This document shows positions 1,128 to 55,441 of a stretch of 64,000 bases of DNA, one piece after another. Origin of the DNA: the human T2T-CHM13v2.0 reference genome, Homo sapiens. The notes beneath the pieces were generated by a model. It saw only the letters and a list, made by a program, of their open reading frames with translations. It did not search any database and was not told the origin of the DNA. A program made the translations under genes and the position numbers. Where the stretch lies: NCBI RefSeq assembly GCF_009914755.1, contig NC_060946.1; one strand, written 5' to 3'. How positions within the stretch are numbered: the stretch's first letter is position 1; the number at the start of each line of letters is the position of its first letter.

Positions 1128-1361
1128 CAGGTTGAGAATCCCGAATCTGAAAATCCAAAATGCTCTACAACCCAAAATGCTCCAAAATCTGAAACTTTTT
1201 GAGCACCAGCACGATACTGAGAGTGCTCATTGGAGTATTTCGGATTTCAGATTTTCAGATTCAGGATGCTCAACCAGTAAATTTCATGCAACTATTTCAG
1301 AATCCGAAAAAGTTTGAAACACTTCTGTTCCCAGACATTTCAATAAGGAATACTCAATTTG
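1128..1361. mobile_element. Tigger4a/MER46A-like non-autonomous DNA transposon
   Basis: CAGGTTGAGAATCCC...GAATACTCAATTTG terminal inverted repeats, TA flanks, internal AATCCGAAA repeats. Confidence 0.85.
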
Positions 1362-2868
1362 TAATACCATTTTAGAATAGTTAGGCGAGCTTTGCTCAGG
1401 TTTGAAAGGGTCACGTAATGTTAATCACTAGGAAATACTTTTGTCTCAAGTAGTGTAAGCCAAGAAAATACTGTCTTGAGAACTTTGCCTGATGAGCTTT
1501 GAATGTCAGAGAAAGGAATAATATTAATTCCTACTTCTAGTTGAGTTAAAGTCATTTAATTTGATGTTTTGTTTCTGTATACCCTGCTTGAAAAACCAGA
1601 ATAGGCTTTTAAAACCTCTAAATGTGTATGTGTTGTTGTTGTTTTTTTGTTTTTTTTTTTTTTGCCTTTGGCAGACCTGTTTTGCAAATGACCAACTTTC
1701 TATATGAGTTTTTAACAAGAATGTTGCCACTTGTTACTTTTCACATTTGAAAGAATCAAATAACTTATTTTTAGGGTATTATAATTACAAATAGATTGTG
1801 GTTTTCTGCAGTCAGTGGAGGAATGTAAATAAACCATTGCTGCTGTAACTATATATAAACGCATGTAGGACAGGAGATGTGCTTGAAAACTGTGAAGCAA
1901 AAAGGAGTCCATCTTTCAGAAAGAGACAACCCTTTTCTTTAAGATAAATCCGATTTATGTGTTGTCTTAAGATAACGAATGACTTGTTTCTCAGTTTTGA
2001 AATACATAGCCCACAGTGTTGGATCAACACCTTCATAGCTTCACGAAGACCAAAATATTTCCTCTGTGTCCCTGGCCACAGGGATCCCTAGTCCTTGAAG
2101 GTGTATCAGAGGAGTCCATGTGTCGAGTGCCTGCTGGAAGAGGGCCAGGAGTAGACTGCGTGGAGGGGATAACTGCAGGTGGAAGGAGCTCTGCTCTTGA
2201 CCGTTTACCTCAGAGTCTGCACTACTGGGTATCTCCAAAGTTACAGCTTGTCAGCATTGCTTCCATCCGTCTTATTTCCACACATTTTGTCTTTTCTTGC
2301 TAGCCCTTTCCTTCTCGCCCAGGTTTTCACTAATGTTTGATCTAACACACTGAATTTAGTGAGGAGGACTTCAGGCCATTGTCTTAGACTATGATAAGGC
2401 CAAGTTCTGTGTTGAATGGGCTTCAGCCTTGCAGGTTGCATTAGCTCAGTAGCAGGTTTCAAAAAATGCTGGCCACTGATCATCAGCCTGTCTTGTTGAG
2501 TATAGTAGAGAGAAGTAGTTATTGGTGATCACATGTTGGTGAGCAAACTTAACTGGTAGCTCAAAACATATTTTTGGTTCTAAGCTATGGGTGCTTCCCA
2601 GCCAGGTGTCAGGACACTCTGCAAAGACCTAATATGTCACAGCATGCCAGGCTTACCCCTGTCCAGGGTCTGGCCCACCCCCTTAATGGATTCCCACCAG
2701 GGTTGTTTCTGGTTCTATGACCCACTTTGCTCTTTCCATCATTTCATGTCCTGCCATTTGCCCTTCCGTAACAAAAGTCACCTTCATGAGAGTACTCCTT
2801 GCGTCTGCTTTAATCTCTTCCAGGTATGTCATAAAAATGCAAAAATGTACAAATTTTGTACATTTGGG

Positions 2869-3376
2869 TGCTATTTGGGTGGGGAGATGGAGAGAAGGAA
2901 AACTGAAGAAGGTAAAATAGAATTGGGAAAACAGCCTAAAAAACTCTTTGATTACTTTGATAGATACCACTTATGGTAATTCTTTAGTTATAATAAGCTC
3001 TGTATTTAAAATGAAATTTTGAGACCAAGTGTTTTCTTTCCTTATACAGCCTGAGGTTCAGTCATCAGAACAGAATCGTGTGGTGAGGCCTTCTGCTTCT
3101 GCCAATTTTGTTTTGTTTTGTTTTCATTTCCTGCCACATGGCAGGTGCTGCTGAGAAGTACCTTCAGGAACCACTGAATATTCTAGCCCCATCTTTCTAA
3201 GGGTTCGGTGATGTAGAATGCTAAAAGGGTTCGGGCTGTTAGTCAGAGAGGGAGGAGGGTGTCTAGCATCGGCGTGGGCCTCTAGTTGTTCTTTTATTGC
3301 CCTTTATGATGTGTCTATTTTGCTTTTTCTTTCCTCCTTCAGTTTTCCTTCTCTCCATCTCCCCACCCAAATAGCA
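2869..3376 (+). repeat. Perfect 40-bp inverted repeat in non-repeat sequence (2869-2908 / 3337-3376, 428-nt spacer)
   Basis: TGCTATTTGGGTGGGGAGATGGAGAGAAGGAAAACTGAAG and its exact reverse complement; FSFPSLHLPTQIA appears in ORFs 2683..2970(-) and 3218..3421(+). Confidence 0.95.
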
Positions 3377-6266
3377 TCACCTTCCTCAGCCCTCTACTTT
3401 TCATCCCTATTCGCTTCTTAATAAATAAAAGCGAATCAAAAAGACAGCAAAGAGAAAGGAGAAACATTTTATAATGCAGAGTTTTGAGCAAAATACTTAA
3501 CTCTGTGTCTTTATATGCCACCACATCTCTTTAATTTTTAGAGGATATGAATATTTTGTCGTTTGTATTTCATAAGCCATCTGTACTGTGTTCAGACTCT
3601 GTGGGTTCTTTGTTGTTTAATTATAGGAAAAGGAGGTATAGGGCAGGAACTTTTTACATACTTGTGAATTTTGGTCAGTCCTGTGAAATGTAAGCCTCTG
3701 GCATTTATTCACGGACCATTGGGATAAACCAGGCATGTAGGTTCAATTTTTTTTGCCTTTGTTGGGATGCTGTGGCCAGTAGCCAGGGCCAGTCATTCCA
3801 GATTCATCCCCTGCCACTCTAGTCCCCAGGGACTAACAGAGTCCAGACAGTGTACATTTTCCTGGCTACGGACTTGACCTTCTGCTTCCTCTGTCCCACT
3901 GCATTCCAAAAATGCTAACAAGTGACTAGCGAGCGTAAATTTTATGTGTTGCAAAAGCAGTTGTGGAACTTGGGTTTCAATGTTTGCACCACTATTTGTA
4001 AGCAGGATGTTATCTCTAAATGATACATGTGTAACTGACCCAGGGGGGCTGCCTGGCCTCCTTGATGCTCTTCTGTGAGAATAATTGACTCTGGTAGTGA
4101 CAGAGCTGCCTGCGGCTACTAAGAAGCTCTGCTGTACTTAGGCCACCTGCCATTGTTCTGTCTCTGCTGCTGCTGCTGCTTTTTCTATTTTTAATAAGTT
4201 GCCAATTACTTGGTTTTTATAGTGATACCAACAGTTCACTAAAATGGGCATAGGAAAAATGTAGTTGGTTTCTAACCTTCAATTTCACTTATCCAGTGAA
4301 ATTAATGACATTAAACACTTTCATCAGTTATTATTGTGAAAGTACAGGTACATTTTTATCTTACTGAACATCATGGTTTAGTTTTTCCATTTTGAAGACA
4401 GTATACAACTATGTAGCTAAGAGCAGTTTGCCTAACATATGTTAATTTTCACAATGATAATCTCAGGTGTGTTCCACAGATGTGATCTAATAAATTGATC
4501 AACTGTTCCTGACCACTACTGGGCCACACTGGAGTGTGCTGAGTTCCCACCTCATAGTGAAAATTGTCAGGATCTTTTGTCTGTTGCATTCACTGATTAC
4601 CTCAAGCACTTAGTAGAAGTTTAATAAATATTTGTAGCATTGTAGTAAGCAAACAAATGTAATTAAGTAGATGGTGTTCACAGATTATCCATTAATATAA
4701 GGTGAGACCAAAGTTTTGTGCACCAGTACTGAAAAGGGATTACTTGGTATTGGCTAAGGTCAGAAGATTACTGGTATTCTAGATATGCTGATTCTGTGGC
4801 TTATAGATTAAGAAAGAATTTAGATATATATTAATGTAATTACTGAAAATCACTAGAATGGTTCACTGTTGGTTTGTCCATAGAAACACTAATCATCATC
4901 AACCTAGAAGCTTTGGGATCTAGGTGAAGTCCATTACTGAATCTTGAAAATGAGTCATTAATCTGAAAATTGACAGTTAAGCATTGAGCATTTTTAAGAA
5001 AGTAATTGAAAAAATATCTGGAATCTACCACTGCCTAACAGTAATACTAGTTTTATGACATTCTTGGTTTACTGTATTATCTAATTACTTTAAAAATGTA
5101 ATTGAAAGTGTTGAGTGTTTATCATCTGGAGAGCATTTTATTATAAATTAATCAGAACAGTAGTTTTGAATCCACAAGTGCAGTAAGTTTCAATGCTACT
5201 TTGATTGGCAGAACCCACCAAGTGAATTTAGGCAGCCAGAAGGGATTTTGATTATTGGGAAAGTCTTTTTGGGTTCTGAGGTTAAGGTGGATTTTATTCT
5301 TCTCATCTGTCATGACGAAGGGGTGATCCACGCAATAGTACTTAAGAAATAATGCAGTAGAGCCACATGCTGGCTTCCGTTTCCAGAGCTGCCTCCTGGG
5401 CCTTTACCTCTTTAAGCCTCAGTTTTCTCAACTGTACAGTGAGCTTCATAGAATTTACCTCAGGAAAGTGAGGTTTACACATTTAGGGAAATGTCCAACA
5501 CATAATGAGCCCAGAAATATATTTTTTTAATTTTTTATTTTTTGTTTTTTTGAGCATGGACATATTAGATATTAATATAGTTACTAAAATATCTGATTTC
5601 TGTATGAGATGCTCATTAAAGAACTTATTGGTGTAAGTATATGATTGGGTACTGTTTCTAAAGATCAGCAAAGTTTTGTCTTTTTTATTTAAACGATTCC
5701 CTGCTTAAGAATATAATTTTTAAAAGTATACCATTATAGTACCAAGAGAAAATACTAGAAATGTGGGACCAGACCTGACAAGACCTTCATGGGAGAAAAT
5801 GTAAAATTATATCAGAAGACATTAAACTAACATCTAAATAGACAGAGCTTTGTCATTCATGGTTAAGAAGGCTCAATTATTTTTAAAAATGTCAATTCTT
5901 CTTGAATTGGTATATAAATTCAAAGTAATTCCCATAAAAACGCCATGCTTTTTTTCTGAAACTTGATAAGATGATTTTAAAATTTATATGGAAAAGAGAA
6001 ATGACAGGAACAACAAGTGGGAGGATTTAACCTGCTAGATCCCTTGCCGTAAAGCTGTAGTAACGAAGAGCAGTGTGGTGTAGATGCAGGGGCTGAGGTG
6101 GGTCAGCGCGTAAGTGGGAAGCCTAGACAAGACCGCCACGCGTACATGGAATCTTGCTCTGTGGCGGAACTGGCCTGACAGTAGGGAGAGGCGACAGTTG
6201 ACACTGCAGTTTAGTTGGGGAAATAATGGACTTTTCGACAAGTGCTCTGGGATACTTCATATGGAT

Positions 6267-7523: not shown

Positions 7524-9119
7524 AAGAAAAAAACAAGTTTTGGTGTGGTTATGGAATAGCAGGAGCTTTTACTTTTCTGGTGGGAGTGTAAATTGTTGAA
7601 ACCACTTTGGAAAAGAGTGTAGCAATGTCTAGTAAAGTTGGAAAACATGGACACTCTATGAGCCAGCAGTTTCAGTTGTGGGCTGGTAACCTACCCCACA
7701 GAAGAGCTGTATGCATGTACAGGAGGCATGCCCTAAGATGTCTGCAGCAATGTGGCTTGTCCTGGCAAAAATTGGAAACCTTAATGCCCATCAGTAGGCA
7801 AATGTATAAATACAGCGTGGTACTCTTTACATTTACATGAATTTTAGGGACATAGCATTGTGTGAGAAAAACAAGTTGCAGAAGAATAAAGTAATAAAAT
7901 TCCACTTAAGAAACTCAGAAATACAACTGAAATGTTGTTTAGGTTACCAAGCATGGTGTGGTCAATCAAGGGAGTGCTAAGTTAAGGGGAAGTTAACGCT
8001 TGTGGAGTAGGGAAAGGTGGGATTATACAGGGGGCTTCTGAGTACCGGAAAGGTTATTCCTTAAGCTGAGTGGAGGGTATATAAAAGTTATTTCGTATGT
8101 ATTAAATATGTAATAAAAATTTTTCTCCAGAAGTTTTATTATTTTTTAAGAGTGGAAAAATAACACAAATGTCATCTCCATCCAAAAAGTAATTCAGGCA
8201 CTGAGTACTTATTTTTAAATGCGTTTTGAATTCTTTGCCAATGAGAGATGCCTGAAACACGGAAAGGAAAGACCTAGTGATCCTTGTTTGTCCCATGACA
8301 TTGGCATTGAGAGGCGTCTGCCGCTGTAGACATGACAGTGTATCTCAAGAGCAGCCTGAAGGAGGTTTTAGTGGCATGTGAAAGCACCGTCAACATTTTT
8401 ATCAGAGCAACAATATGCCTATCCCCTGTTCATTTTATTATTATTATTATTTTTTGGCAACTAAGTAATTGAGCCAGATGGAAAATGTTTCCCACATTAG
8501 GTTCTCTTTCAGCTTTCATGCATGTCAGCCATTTAATTTTACTGTTCCTAATCTCCTAATGATAAGACTTCAAAATGTGAATAATTGGCTAAGAGAGTCC
8601 AATTTATTCTCTAGAACAGAAACTTCTAAAGATAGCTTATACCTGCCCCTTTCTACCAATATCCATTTAGTTAATGGATAGTAAGAACAAAATAATAAAA
8701 CCAGCTTTTATTTCTTCCTAGCCTGTCTGAACATGCAGTCATCTGGTTGGTTAGCAGTTGAAAAGGCCCAAACCTTTATCTCACCATAAGAACATGGGCT
8801 TGGAAATCAGACAAACAAACCTAGATTCACGCCTCATCTCTGCACTTACTATGAGTAAAAACTCTGTAATTTACTTAAAGGCTCTGAACCTCGGTTCAGG
8901 ACATGGTGGTAGTTCTGCCCCTGGCTTCCCAGAATGGTGGCATTCTTACGCTAACCTGCCATGGCATGCATAAGAAGCATACCCCCAGTGAGAGGATCCC
9001 CTGCTGCAGTCACTAGTTGTGTATCTCAAGAGATTTTCACTTGAATACTCTGAGCCTTGGTTTCCTCATTTGCAAAGTGGGAAGAAAGACTTCCACCTCT
9101 CTGGGATAAAGAGAATGCA

Positions 9120-45404: not shown

Positions 45405-45492
45405 AGAGAAGGAGCAAGAAAGGGAAGAACAGTTAATGGAAGACAAGAAAAGGAAGAAAGAGGATAAAAAGAAAAAAGAAGCCACTCAGAAG
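45405..45492 (+). CDS. TNRC6B: TNRC6B coding exon (88 nt, phase 2 to 0): (R/Q)[29 protein letters not shown]
   Basis: ttactttaatag acceptor, AAG|gtaggt donor; translation matches the Lys/Glu-rich TNRC6B N-terminus. Confidence 0.95.

Positions 45493-53991: not shown

Positions 53992-55441
<1,450 letters not shown>

What the first reader, a model, noticed from the sequence alone, without database searches (positions are those of the whole stretch)
2795..3376. Perfect 40-bp long-range duplex that covers an RS-like 88-nt exon and its donor
The acceptor ctccttgcgtctgctttaatctcttcCAG (ends 2823) is followed immediately by GTATGT, matching the recursive-splice-site consensus in a very long intron. 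A second donor AAG|GTAAAA follows at 2911/2912. The purine-rich 3' half of this exon (2869-2908) is exactly complementary to 3337-3376, and GTAAAATAGA (2912-2921) can pair with TCTATTTTGC (3314-3323; one G-U), so the putative enhancers and donor are both buried. In the incoming phase the exon is open (RYVIKMQKCTNFVHLGAIWVGRWREGKLKK). Joined to exon 45405 it gives TAA at 45465-45467; replacing that exon it is in frame. A strong-Kozak GAGATGG (MERRKTEE) also exits in phase 1, in frame with exon 61207. A 40/40 match in non-repeat DNA is not chance: it is either a selected structure or a recent templated copy.
Basis: partly seen in the sequence, partly recalled or inferred. Interest (0 to 1): 0.8.

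Follow-up and report, generated by a model that had tools for sequence, protein, structure and literature searches.

The report
Inverted 40-base copy beside cryptic exon
A 40-base stretch in the longest intron of human TNRC6B is repeated backwards about 430 bases away, most likely a harmless DNA copying slip, next to a conserved splice-like site that published data sets do not show in use.

Summary
2869-2908 is the exact reverse complement of 3337-3376 (40/40; 45/47 over 2869-2915/3330-3376). Chance expectation is 0, and these are the only two copies in the T2T genome. The borders are abrupt, the flanks share no similarity, there is no target-site duplication and no Rfam hit. None of the 40 pairs is G-U. 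That is the mark of a DNA-templated inverted copy (short-range template switch), not of a long-maintained RNA helix. Arm B sits in a 120-nt pyrimidine tract, so it is probably the source and arm A the copy. The age could not be tested because no other mammal genome was available.

The AG|GTATGT site at 2823/2824 is already in print as one of 36,870 'putative' recursive sites (Zhang 2018 S1 Table; 3'ss MaxEnt 11.28, 100-way phastCons 0.996). TNRC6B is absent from three lists of sites with read support. After joining to the upstream exon, the rebuilt donor (ACA|GTATGT) is weaker than the 88-nt exon's own donor. If used, the unit would therefore act as a poison exon rather than a recursive site. 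The RNA duplex (-78 kcal/mol) should form, but a function for it is inference only.

The parts
2795..2823 (+). Acceptor-like polypyrimidine tract ending in CAG
   Evidence: 15 of 18 pyrimidines at -20..-3. The published MaxEnt 3'ss score is 11.28 for the site that maps here.
2822..2825 (+). AG|GT junction, printed as a 'putative recursive splice site' (hg19 chr22:40599438)
   Evidence: Zhang 2018 S1 Table row, with phastCons 0.996 over these 4 nt. The coordinate mapping was validated: 2 of 3 listed sites in this intron land exactly on AGGT.
2824..2911 (+). 88-nt exon-like unit. It is not annotated. If included it is a poison exon (TAA at 45465-45467).
   Evidence: Length, open frame and downstream stop are. 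It is not in the RefSeq row given by the hub. TNRC6B is absent from the lists of used sites.
2844..2864 (+). Small local palindrome (ATGTACAAATTTTGTACAT) inside the unit
   Evidence: Forms a 10-bp hairpin in the MFE and centroid structures.
2869..2915 (+). Arm A of the inverted repeat (exact core 2869-2908), purine-rich. Probably the copy.
   Evidence: The arm is at the 1.4th percentile of pyrimidine content, while its flanks are at the 26th and 6.7th.
2909..2917 (+). Donor-like site AAG|GTAAAA at the inner edge of arm A
   Evidence: 7/9 consensus and U1 duplex of -6.8 kcal/mol. P(unpaired) is 0.00-0.15 in a 1.6-kb fold.
2916..3329 (+). 414-nt spacer (the loop of the predicted stem)
   Evidence: No Rfam match. 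Unique in the genome except for one 36-nt low-complexity hit.
3297..3416 (+). 120-nt pyrimidine tract that contains arm B
   Evidence: The flanks of arm B are at the 99.4th and 99.6th percentile of pyrimidine content of all 40-mers in the window. Arm B itself is at the 98.3rd.
3330..3376 (+). Arm B of the inverted repeat (exact core 3337-3376). Probably the source.

Best explanation
The 40-bp (at most 47-bp) inverted repeat is a DNA-level templated copy. During replication or break repair the growing strand switched template, copied about 40 nt of nearby sequence in reverse-complement orientation, and switched back. This is a short-range template-switch mutation of the type that creates an inverted repeat.

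The source is probably the pyrimidine tract at 3337-3376, and the copy is the purine-rich stretch at 2869-2908 (about 70:30 for this direction).

The copy happens to lie in the body of an unannotated 88-nt exon-like unit. That unit's acceptor is a conserved, strong AG|GT site already catalogued as a putative recursive site.

In the pre-mRNA the two arms should form a very stable stem with a loop of about 420 nt. The likely consequences are inferred, not shown. The purine-rich half and the donor of the exon-like unit would be occluded, which would help keep a would-be poison exon silent. The stem would also be a substrate for A-to-I editing. The repeat itself is most likely neutral rather than selected.
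For: Shown here:
- Exact 40/40 complementarity, 45/47 when extended. Chance expectation is 0.00 in 100 shuffles.
- Only these two copies exist in the assembly.
- Borders are abrupt. Shuffles scored at least as well as the observed flank alignments in 263/300 (inner flanks), 125/300 (outer flanks) and 220/300 (inner 40 nt).
- No flanking direct repeat is visible in the sequence and there is no Rfam family.
- 0 of 40 pairs are G-U, as expected for copying at the DNA level.
- Arm B matches its context (flanks at the 99.4th and 99.6th pyrimidine percentile). Arm A is more extreme than its flanks.
- Within the window it is the longest exact inverted repeat outside the separate 54076-55441 inverted duplication. 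The list holds 73 exact pairs of at least 14 nt. By my own reading of the sequences (a recalled Alu consensus, no tool), the rest of the 25 longest printed (19-31 nt) look like Alu or poly-A.
- Duplex energy is -78.1 kcal/mol for the core and -94.5 extended. Mean pair probability is 0.993 in a 1.6-kb context. The MFE z-score is -8.7 against 20 shuffles.

From papers (passages seen):
- Template-switch events that create inverted repeats made up 31% of high-confidence human-chimp events (PMC5453318).
- Copied fragments of 25 to 125 bp, and up to 318 bp, are reported in human variation (bioRxiv 10.1101/2021.11.26.470150).
Against: - No outgroup sequence could be examined, so neither the absence of one arm in relatives nor the direction of copying is shown.
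- The copy lies 428-468 nt from its source. Published searches look within tens to hundreds of nt, and one used +/-100 nt (PMC7954356). This case is at or beyond the range they sampled.
- The AG|GT site 45 nt upstream of arm A has 100-way phastCons 0.996. If that conserved block extends over arm A, then arm A is old. In that case either arm B is the copy or both arms are conserved.
- A 9-nt direct repeat, ATTTGGGTG (2862-2870 and 2873-2881), straddles the outer border of arm A. The simple one-jump model does not explain it.
- Perfect identity of 80 sites only bounds the age to a few tens of millions of years. This is my estimate from recalled neutral rates, so 'recent' is loose.
Confidence: 0.6

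Rival explanations
1. The duplex is a selected long-range RNA structure. It hides the purine-rich enhancer-like half and the donor of a conserved recursive or poison exon, and so sets how often TNRC6B transcripts are spliced unproductively.
For: - The AG|GT site is conserved (phastCons 0.996) and has a very strong acceptor (MaxEnt 11.28).
- It is the only one of 573 AGGT sites in the window that passes a joint acceptor/donor filter.
- It lies near the middle of the gene's longest listed intron, with 47,252 and 42,580 nt on either side in hg19.
- The duplex covers 2869-2915 and the donor is predicted to be paired.
- Inclusion gives a premature stop.
- Pairs of complementary regions that control poison exons are known in other genes (titles and abstracts of PMC8052449 and PMC10789245).
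Against: - 0 of 40 G-U pairs and abrupt borders look like a DNA copy, not a maintained helix.
- TNRC6B is absent from three lists of used recursive sites and from the supplement of a paper on conserved cryptic poison exons.
- TNRC6B is not in the held supplements of the complementary-region catalogue. The full catalogue was not among the held files.
- No paper holds both 'TNRC6B' and 'poison exon'.
- The fold also pairs the AG|GT site itself, so the occlusion prediction is unspecific.
Confidence: 0.1
2. An older, imperfect inverted repeat (quasi-palindrome) was made perfect over its 40-nt core by template switching between the arms or by gene conversion. Both arms would then be old and only the identity recent.
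For: - Just inside the core there are weak further matches: 5 of 7 at 2909-2915, and 9 of 10 for GTAAAATAGA/TCTATTTTGC after a 10-nt bulge.
- This classic mechanism is described in PMC5453318 (passages).
Against: - Those extra matches are at chance level (220 of 300 shuffles).
- No residual similarity is found in 200 nt of either flank.
Confidence: 0.15
3. Whatever the duplex is, 2823/2824 is a working recursive splice site that removes the 89.6-kb intron in two steps.
For: Motif, acceptor strength, conservation, mid-intron position and a downstream donor 88 nt away all fit.
Against: - Only 342 of 36,870 putative sites had junction reads in the source study, and this one did not.
- TNRC6B is also absent from the 900-sample brain set and the lariat set.
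- The rebuilt donor ACA|GTATGT (6/9 consensus; -2.9 kcal/mol with U1) is weaker than both the exon's own donor (7/9; -6.8) and the upstream exon's native donor (7/9; -5.7). In the source paper, 67% of real sites show the opposite order.
Confidence: 0.1
4. The arms are the terminal inverted repeats of a small DNA transposon.
For: There are two inverted arms with an interior of about 420 nt.
Against: - No other copy exists in 3.1 Gb.
- The sequences next to the outer ends (CATTTGGG / TCACCTTC) are not a duplication.
- Human DNA transposons are old (recalled), so perfect arms would not be expected.
Confidence: 0.01

Closest known systems
Short-range template-switch mutations (four-point model; Loytynoja and Goldman 2017, PMC5453318)
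   Same: A stretch that is the exact reverse complement of nearby unique sequence, with abrupt borders, which creates a perfect inverted repeat and a stable hairpin. The copied length of 40-47 nt is within reported ranges.
   Different: The copy is 428-468 nt from its source, further than the +/-100 nt searched in one published screen. The ancestral state was not seen here, so the event is inferred from the product alone.
Vertebrate recursive splice sites with an RS-exon (Sibley 2015, recalled; Zhang 2018, PMC6110456)
   Same: AG|GT in a long intron, a strong acceptor, high conservation, and a downstream donor that defines a short exon whose inclusion gives a premature stop.
   Different: No junction, sawtooth or lariat support appears in the lists examined. 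The rebuilt donor is weaker than the RS-exon donor.
Pairs of conserved complementary regions that regulate splicing (Kalmykova 2021, PMC8052449; BRD2/BRD3, PMC10789245)
   Same: Intronic long-range complementarity near splice signals of an unproductive exon. The energy is far below the thresholds I recall from that work.
   Different: Conservation of both arms is untested. Perfect Watson-Crick pairing without wobble looks copied rather than maintained. TNRC6B was not found in the held supplements.
Inverted-repeat ADAR substrates (usually inverted Alu pairs; established knowledge, recalled)
   Same: An intramolecular duplex of at least 40 perfect pairs in a pre-mRNA intron.
   Different: It is not Alu-derived and is much shorter than an Alu pair. 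Editing was not examined.

Membership tests
Template-switch mutation product | A segment that is the exact reverse complement of nearby sequence | tested here: met
   40/40 exact and 45/47 extended.
Template-switch mutation product | Abrupt borders, with flanks that are not homologous | tested here: met
   Flank alignments are no better than shuffles: 263/300, 125/300 and 220/300.
Template-switch mutation product | Not a dispersed repeat or transposon | tested here: met
   Only two copies in the assembly. No flanking duplication.
Template-switch mutation product | Source within the short range of the fork (tens to hundreds of nt) | tested here: inconclusive
   The core arms are 428 nt apart (414 nt between the 47-nt arms), at the upper edge of what the published screens sampled.
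Template-switch mutation product | The ancestral or outgroup sequence lacks the copy | not testable with these tools
   No other mammal genome is held. A scan of prokaryote assemblies for a contaminating orthologue found 0.
Recursive splice site with RS-exon | AG|GT in a long intron with a strong acceptor | tested here: met
   Intron of 89,832 nt in hg19 and 89,640 nt in T2T. MaxEnt 11.28. 15/18 pyrimidines.
Recursive splice site with RS-exon | Evolutionary conservation of the site | tested here: met
   Published 100-way phastCons of 0.996 for the four nucleotides. Not recomputed here.
Recursive splice site with RS-exon | A downstream donor that defines an RS-exon | tested here: met
   AAG|GTAAAA lies 88 nt downstream and matches 7/9 of the consensus. 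This is a motif match only.
Recursive splice site with RS-exon | The rebuilt donor outcompetes the RS-exon donor | tested here: not met
   ACA|GTATGT scores 6/9 and -2.9 kcal/mol. AAG|GTAAAA scores 7/9 and -6.8. The scores are consensus matches and U1 duplex energy, not MaxEnt.
Recursive splice site with RS-exon | Junction reads, sawtooth pattern or lariats | tested here: not met
   TNRC6B occurs only in the 'putative' table among the 6 supplement files. There were 0 occurrences in the supplements of PMC10156609 and PMC13622621. No raw reads were examined.
Conserved long-range RNA structure (PCCR) | Stable complementarity within one intron | tested here: met
   -78.1 kcal/mol and mean pair probability 0.993.
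Conserved long-range RNA structure (PCCR) | Both arms conserved, with compensatory changes | not testable with these tools
   No alignments were available. Only the AGGT 45 nt upstream of arm A has a published conservation score.
DNA transposon with terminal inverted repeats | Target-site duplication and multiple genomic copies | tested here: not met
Known structured RNA family | Match to an Rfam covariance model | tested here: not met
   0 matches at E up to 1 in 1500-5000 on both strands.

The most novel reading that the evidence does not exclude
A lineage-specific template-switch copy created, in one step, a 40-bp RNA clamp over the enhancer-like half and the donor of a deeply conserved cryptic 88-nt poison or recursive exon in the longest intron of TNRC6B. 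That would change how much productive mRNA of a core microRNA-silencing factor is made. It would be an example of a single mutation producing a splicing-regulatory long-range structure.
Probability: 0.07. Interest if true: 0.6.

Novelty: new member of a known kind. Interest (0 to 1): 0.3.

Why it matters
If it is the neutral product of a template switch, it is one more clean example of a known mutational process, notable only for its length and its distance from the source. It would matter more if the copy changed the use of the neighbouring conserved AG|GT unit. TNRC6B is dosage-sensitive for microRNA silencing (recalled). A one-step origin of a structure that silences a poison exon would link template switching to splicing regulation. 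The locus is also a convenient natural test case, because a single antisense oligonucleotide or a change to one arm should show whether a perfect 40-bp intronic stem alters exon definition.

Tried and rejected
- **Rfam scan.** A scan of 1500-5000 gave 0 matches.
- **Transposon reading.** Rejected on copy number and the lack of a flanking duplication.
- **Longer, older inverted repeat.** A search of the flanks gave chance-level scores.
- **Orthologue from contaminating host DNA.** A 26-nt pattern over the AG|GT site found 0 hits in the prokaryote assemblies. A shorter pattern was not tried because random hits would dominate.
- **Literature searches.**
  - 'recursive splicing' + 'TNRC6B' returned 0 papers.
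  - 'TNRC6B' + 'poison exon' returned 0 papers.
  - 'TNRC6B' + 'inverted repeat' returned 11 papers, of which 10 were listed; none concerns this locus by title.
  - The four genome coordinates as numbers returned 5 papers, none on this locus by title, so the numbers are presumably unrelated.
  - A six-term search with at least 2 terms listed 25 of 291 papers, and none of the 25 contained TNRC6B.
- **Limit on supplement reading.** Supplement file 1 of PMC6110456 is cut in storage. I read only part 293.
- **Splice scores.** MaxEnt scores for donors could not be computed because the model tables are not available. Consensus matches and U1 duplex energies were used instead.
Full report
**1. The observation**

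- A pyrimidine-rich acceptor ends in CAG at 2823 and is followed at once by GTATGT.
- AAG|GTAAAA follows at 2911/2912, so the unit 2824-2911 is 88 nt.
- 2869-2908 is the exact reverse complement of 3337-3376, 40 of 40.
- The repeat finder extends the pair to 47 nt at 96% (2869-2915 / 3330-3376), with 414 nt between the arms.
- The 40-mer has 2 matches in the window at up to 3 mismatches. The expectation from 100 shuffles is 0.00.

**2. It is not a repeat family or a known RNA**

- A 91-nt query around arm A found only itself and its inverted partner in the 3.1-Gb T2T assembly (2 matches).
- The whole region 2600-3600 gave 4 matches: itself, the two arm matches, and a 36-nt low-complexity hit on contig 12. 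The tool warns that such counts are lower bounds and that very common words are skipped.
- Rfam gave 0 matches at E up to 1 over 1500-5000.
- The bases outside the outer ends of the arms are not a target-site duplication.
- One search listed 73 exact inverted pairs of at least 14 nt within 1.5 kb in the window, and this one is the fifth longest. The four longer ones all belong to a separate inverted duplication at 54076-55441.
- By my own reading of the sequences, using a recalled Alu consensus, the rest of the 25 longest that were printed (19-31 nt) look like Alu or poly-A.

**3. Borders and origin**

The similarity stops abruptly. With the core removed, local alignments of the flanks were no better than shuffles:

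| Flank compared | Shuffles scoring at least as well |
|---|---|
| Inner flanks | 263 of 300 |
| Outer flanks | 125 of 300 |
| Nearest 40 nt inside | 220 of 300 |

None of the 40 pairs is G-U. Perfect Watson-Crick identity with sharp borders in unique DNA is what a DNA-templated inverted copy leaves.

Short-range template switching is documented in humans:
- Events that create an inverted repeat made up 31% of high-confidence human-chimp events (PMC5453318, passages).
- Copied fragments of 25-125 bp, and up to 318 bp, are reported in human variation data (bioRxiv 10.1101/2021.11.26.470150, passages).
- One published screen searched only +/-100 nt around a mutation cluster (PMC7954356, passages). 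A copy 428-468 nt from its source lies outside what that screen sampled.

A templated insertion during end joining would leave the same product, and I cannot separate the two.

**4. Which arm is the copy**

Arm B lies in a 120-nt pyrimidine tract. Its 40-nt flanks are at the 99.4th and 99.6th percentile of pyrimidine content among all 40-mers of the window, and the arm itself is at the 98.3rd. Arm A is at the 1.4th percentile, while its flanks are at the 26th and 6.7th.

Arm B therefore fits its surroundings and arm A stands out from its own. This favours B as the source, at about 70:30. It is context evidence only, because no outgroup could be read.

A 9-nt direct repeat (ATTTGGGTG at 2862-2870 and 2873-2881) straddles the outer border of arm A and is unexplained.

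Under recalled neutral rates, zero differences in 80 sites bounds the age only to a few tens of millions of years. The copy could be shared by many primates.

The distance from 2824 to the next exon is the same in hg19 and in T2T (42,580 nt). That is consistent with both arms being present in both assemblies. It is not proof, because a third listed site is displaced by 7 nt.

**5. RNA level**

- The core arms pair with -78.1 kcal/mol, and the extended pairing with -94.5 kcal/mol.
- In a 1.6-kb context the mean probability of the 40 core pairs is 0.993, with a minimum of 0.833.
- The 641-nt fold has a z-score of -8.7 against 20 shuffles. It contains 42 pairs, then a 10-nt bulge, then 13 more pairs that cover the donor.
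- The donor 2909-2917 has P(unpaired) of 0.00-0.15.
- The AG|GT site 2821-2829 is predicted to be just as paired, at 0.00-0.22. Occlusion predicted by this model is therefore not specific to the donor.

**6. The AG|GT site is already in print as a putative recursive site**

Supplementary Table S1 of Zhang et al. 2018 (PMC6110456) lists, for the TNRC6B intron hg19 chr22:40552186-40642018 (89,832 nt), a site at 40599438. It lies 42,580 nt from the intron end, with values 11.28 and 0.996.

That distance equals 45404 minus 2824 in the window. Of the 3 sites listed in the part of this intron that lies in the window, 2 land exactly on AGGT (1131 and 2824) and their spacing is identical (1693). The third is 7 nt off. 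AGGT occupies 198 positions in 45,404 nt, so the mapping is secure.

The table holds 36,870 'putative' sites. They are defined by four criteria (sections read):
- AGGT in an intron of at least 5 kb;
- MaxEnt 3'ss score of at least 5;
- mean 100-way phastCons of the four bases of at least 0.5;
- no annotated splice site at the position.

The acceptor is therefore very strong and the site lies in a deeply conserved block. In my own simple filter it is the only hit among 294 AGGT sites on the + strand, and there were 0 hits among 279 on the - strand. The filter required at least 14/18 pyrimidines, a pyrimidine at -3 and at least 8/9 of the donor consensus.

**7. No evidence of use, and the recursive step looks unfavourable**

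- TNRC6B occurs only in that first table among the 6 held supplement files of the paper. It is absent from the 342 sites with at least 3 junction reads and from the sawtooth and lariat tables.
- It has 0 occurrences in the supplements of a lariat-based study (PMC10156609, 3 files).
- It has 0 occurrences in the supplement of a study of 900 brain samples (PMC13622621, 1 file of 1.5 million characters).
- It is also absent from the held supplement of a paper on conserved cryptic poison exons (PMC11632617) and from the 3 held supplement files of the complementary-region catalogue paper (PMC8052449).

I fetched the upstream exon from the same assembly. It is 68 nt and ends ...AAACA|GTGAGT. The donor comparison is:

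| Donor | Consensus match | U1 5'-end duplex (kcal/mol) |
|---|---|---|
| Rebuilt donor after a first recursive step, ACA\|GTATGT | 6/9 | -2.9 |
| Donor of the 88-nt unit, AAG\|GTAAAA | 7/9 | -6.8 |
| Native donor of the upstream exon | 7/9 | -5.7 |
| Three annotated donors in the window | 8/9 each | -9.5 to -11.5 |

In the source paper, 67% of supported sites have the rebuilt donor stronger than the RS-exon donor (section read). Here the order is reversed. If the acceptor were used, the 88-nt unit would tend to be kept, and it brings TAA into frame at 45465-45467. The unit therefore looks more like a silent or poison exon than a ratchet point.

**8.

- Frame 1 of the joined annotated exons is the coding frame, and the unit is open in that phase.
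- The first residue is Q (CA+G), not R.
- An open stretch of 29 codons is not evidence of coding.
- The ATG at 2887 does leave the unit in phase 1, but nothing suggests that a transcript starts there.

**9. Synthesis**

The best reading (0.6) is a neutral DNA-templated inverted copy, probably of the pyrimidine tract into the purine-rich position. It happens to sit inside a conserved but apparently unused exon-like unit.

The stem should form in the pre-mRNA. Occlusion of the unit's donor and A-to-I editing are plausible consequences but are inferred only.

| Rival reading | Confidence |
|---|---|
| Selected regulatory structure | 0.1 |
| Correction of an older quasi-palindrome | 0.15 |
| True recursive site, whatever the duplex is | 0.1 |
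| Transposon | 0.01 |

**10. Limits**

- No genome of another mammal was available.
- A scan of prokaryote assemblies for a contaminating orthologue found nothing.
- Paper reading closed and the search of earlier findings was not open.
- Donor MaxEnt scores could not be computed.
- The conservation and acceptor scores are taken from the published table and were not recomputed.

Noticed in passing
window 54076-54446 and 55067-55441: A much larger local inverted duplication lies in the next TNRC6B intron. The arms are about 370 nt and 95-97% complementary, with a 620-nt spacer and exact runs of up to 104 nt. The first part looks Alu-like (my reading). The part at 54250-54446 has only these two full-length copies in the genome (17 matches, 2 of them full length). 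It would form a long double-stranded RNA in the pre-mRNA.
   Followed up: partly
window 2862-2881: A 9-nt direct repeat, ATTTGGGTG, occurs twice 11 nt apart and straddles the outer border of arm A. It may be microhomology or a second step of the copying event. It is unexplained.
   Followed up: no
window 2844-2864: A near-perfect palindrome (ATGTACAAATTTTGTACAT) forms a 10-bp hairpin inside the 88-nt unit, close to the conserved AG|GT site.
   Followed up: no
window 1129-1132 and about 8499-8502: Two further AGGT sites of this intron are in the same published table of putative recursive sites. The first maps to hg19 40597745 (3'ss 8.0, phastCons 0.82) and lands exactly on AGGT at window 1131. 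The second is hg19 40605122 (6.0, 0.74). Its nearest AGGT in T2T is 7 nt away, which implies compensating small indels between the assemblies.
   Followed up: partly
window 3325-3440: Two acceptor-like pyrimidine-plus-CAG sites end at 3342 and 3389. They are followed by AATAAATAAA inside a 7-bp hairpin (TTCGCTT...AAGCGAA) near 3410-3440. This is a motif pattern like an intronic terminal exon with a poly(A) signal. It is a motif observation only.
   Followed up: no
L003 498-565 (window -44303 to -44236): The 68-nt upstream coding exon itself begins with GT directly after its acceptor AG (cag|GTGGAAC), so it is an annotated exon with a recursive-type 5' end. The T2T intron is 89,640 nt against 89,832 nt in hg19, with the 192-nt difference in the upstream half.
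   Followed up: no
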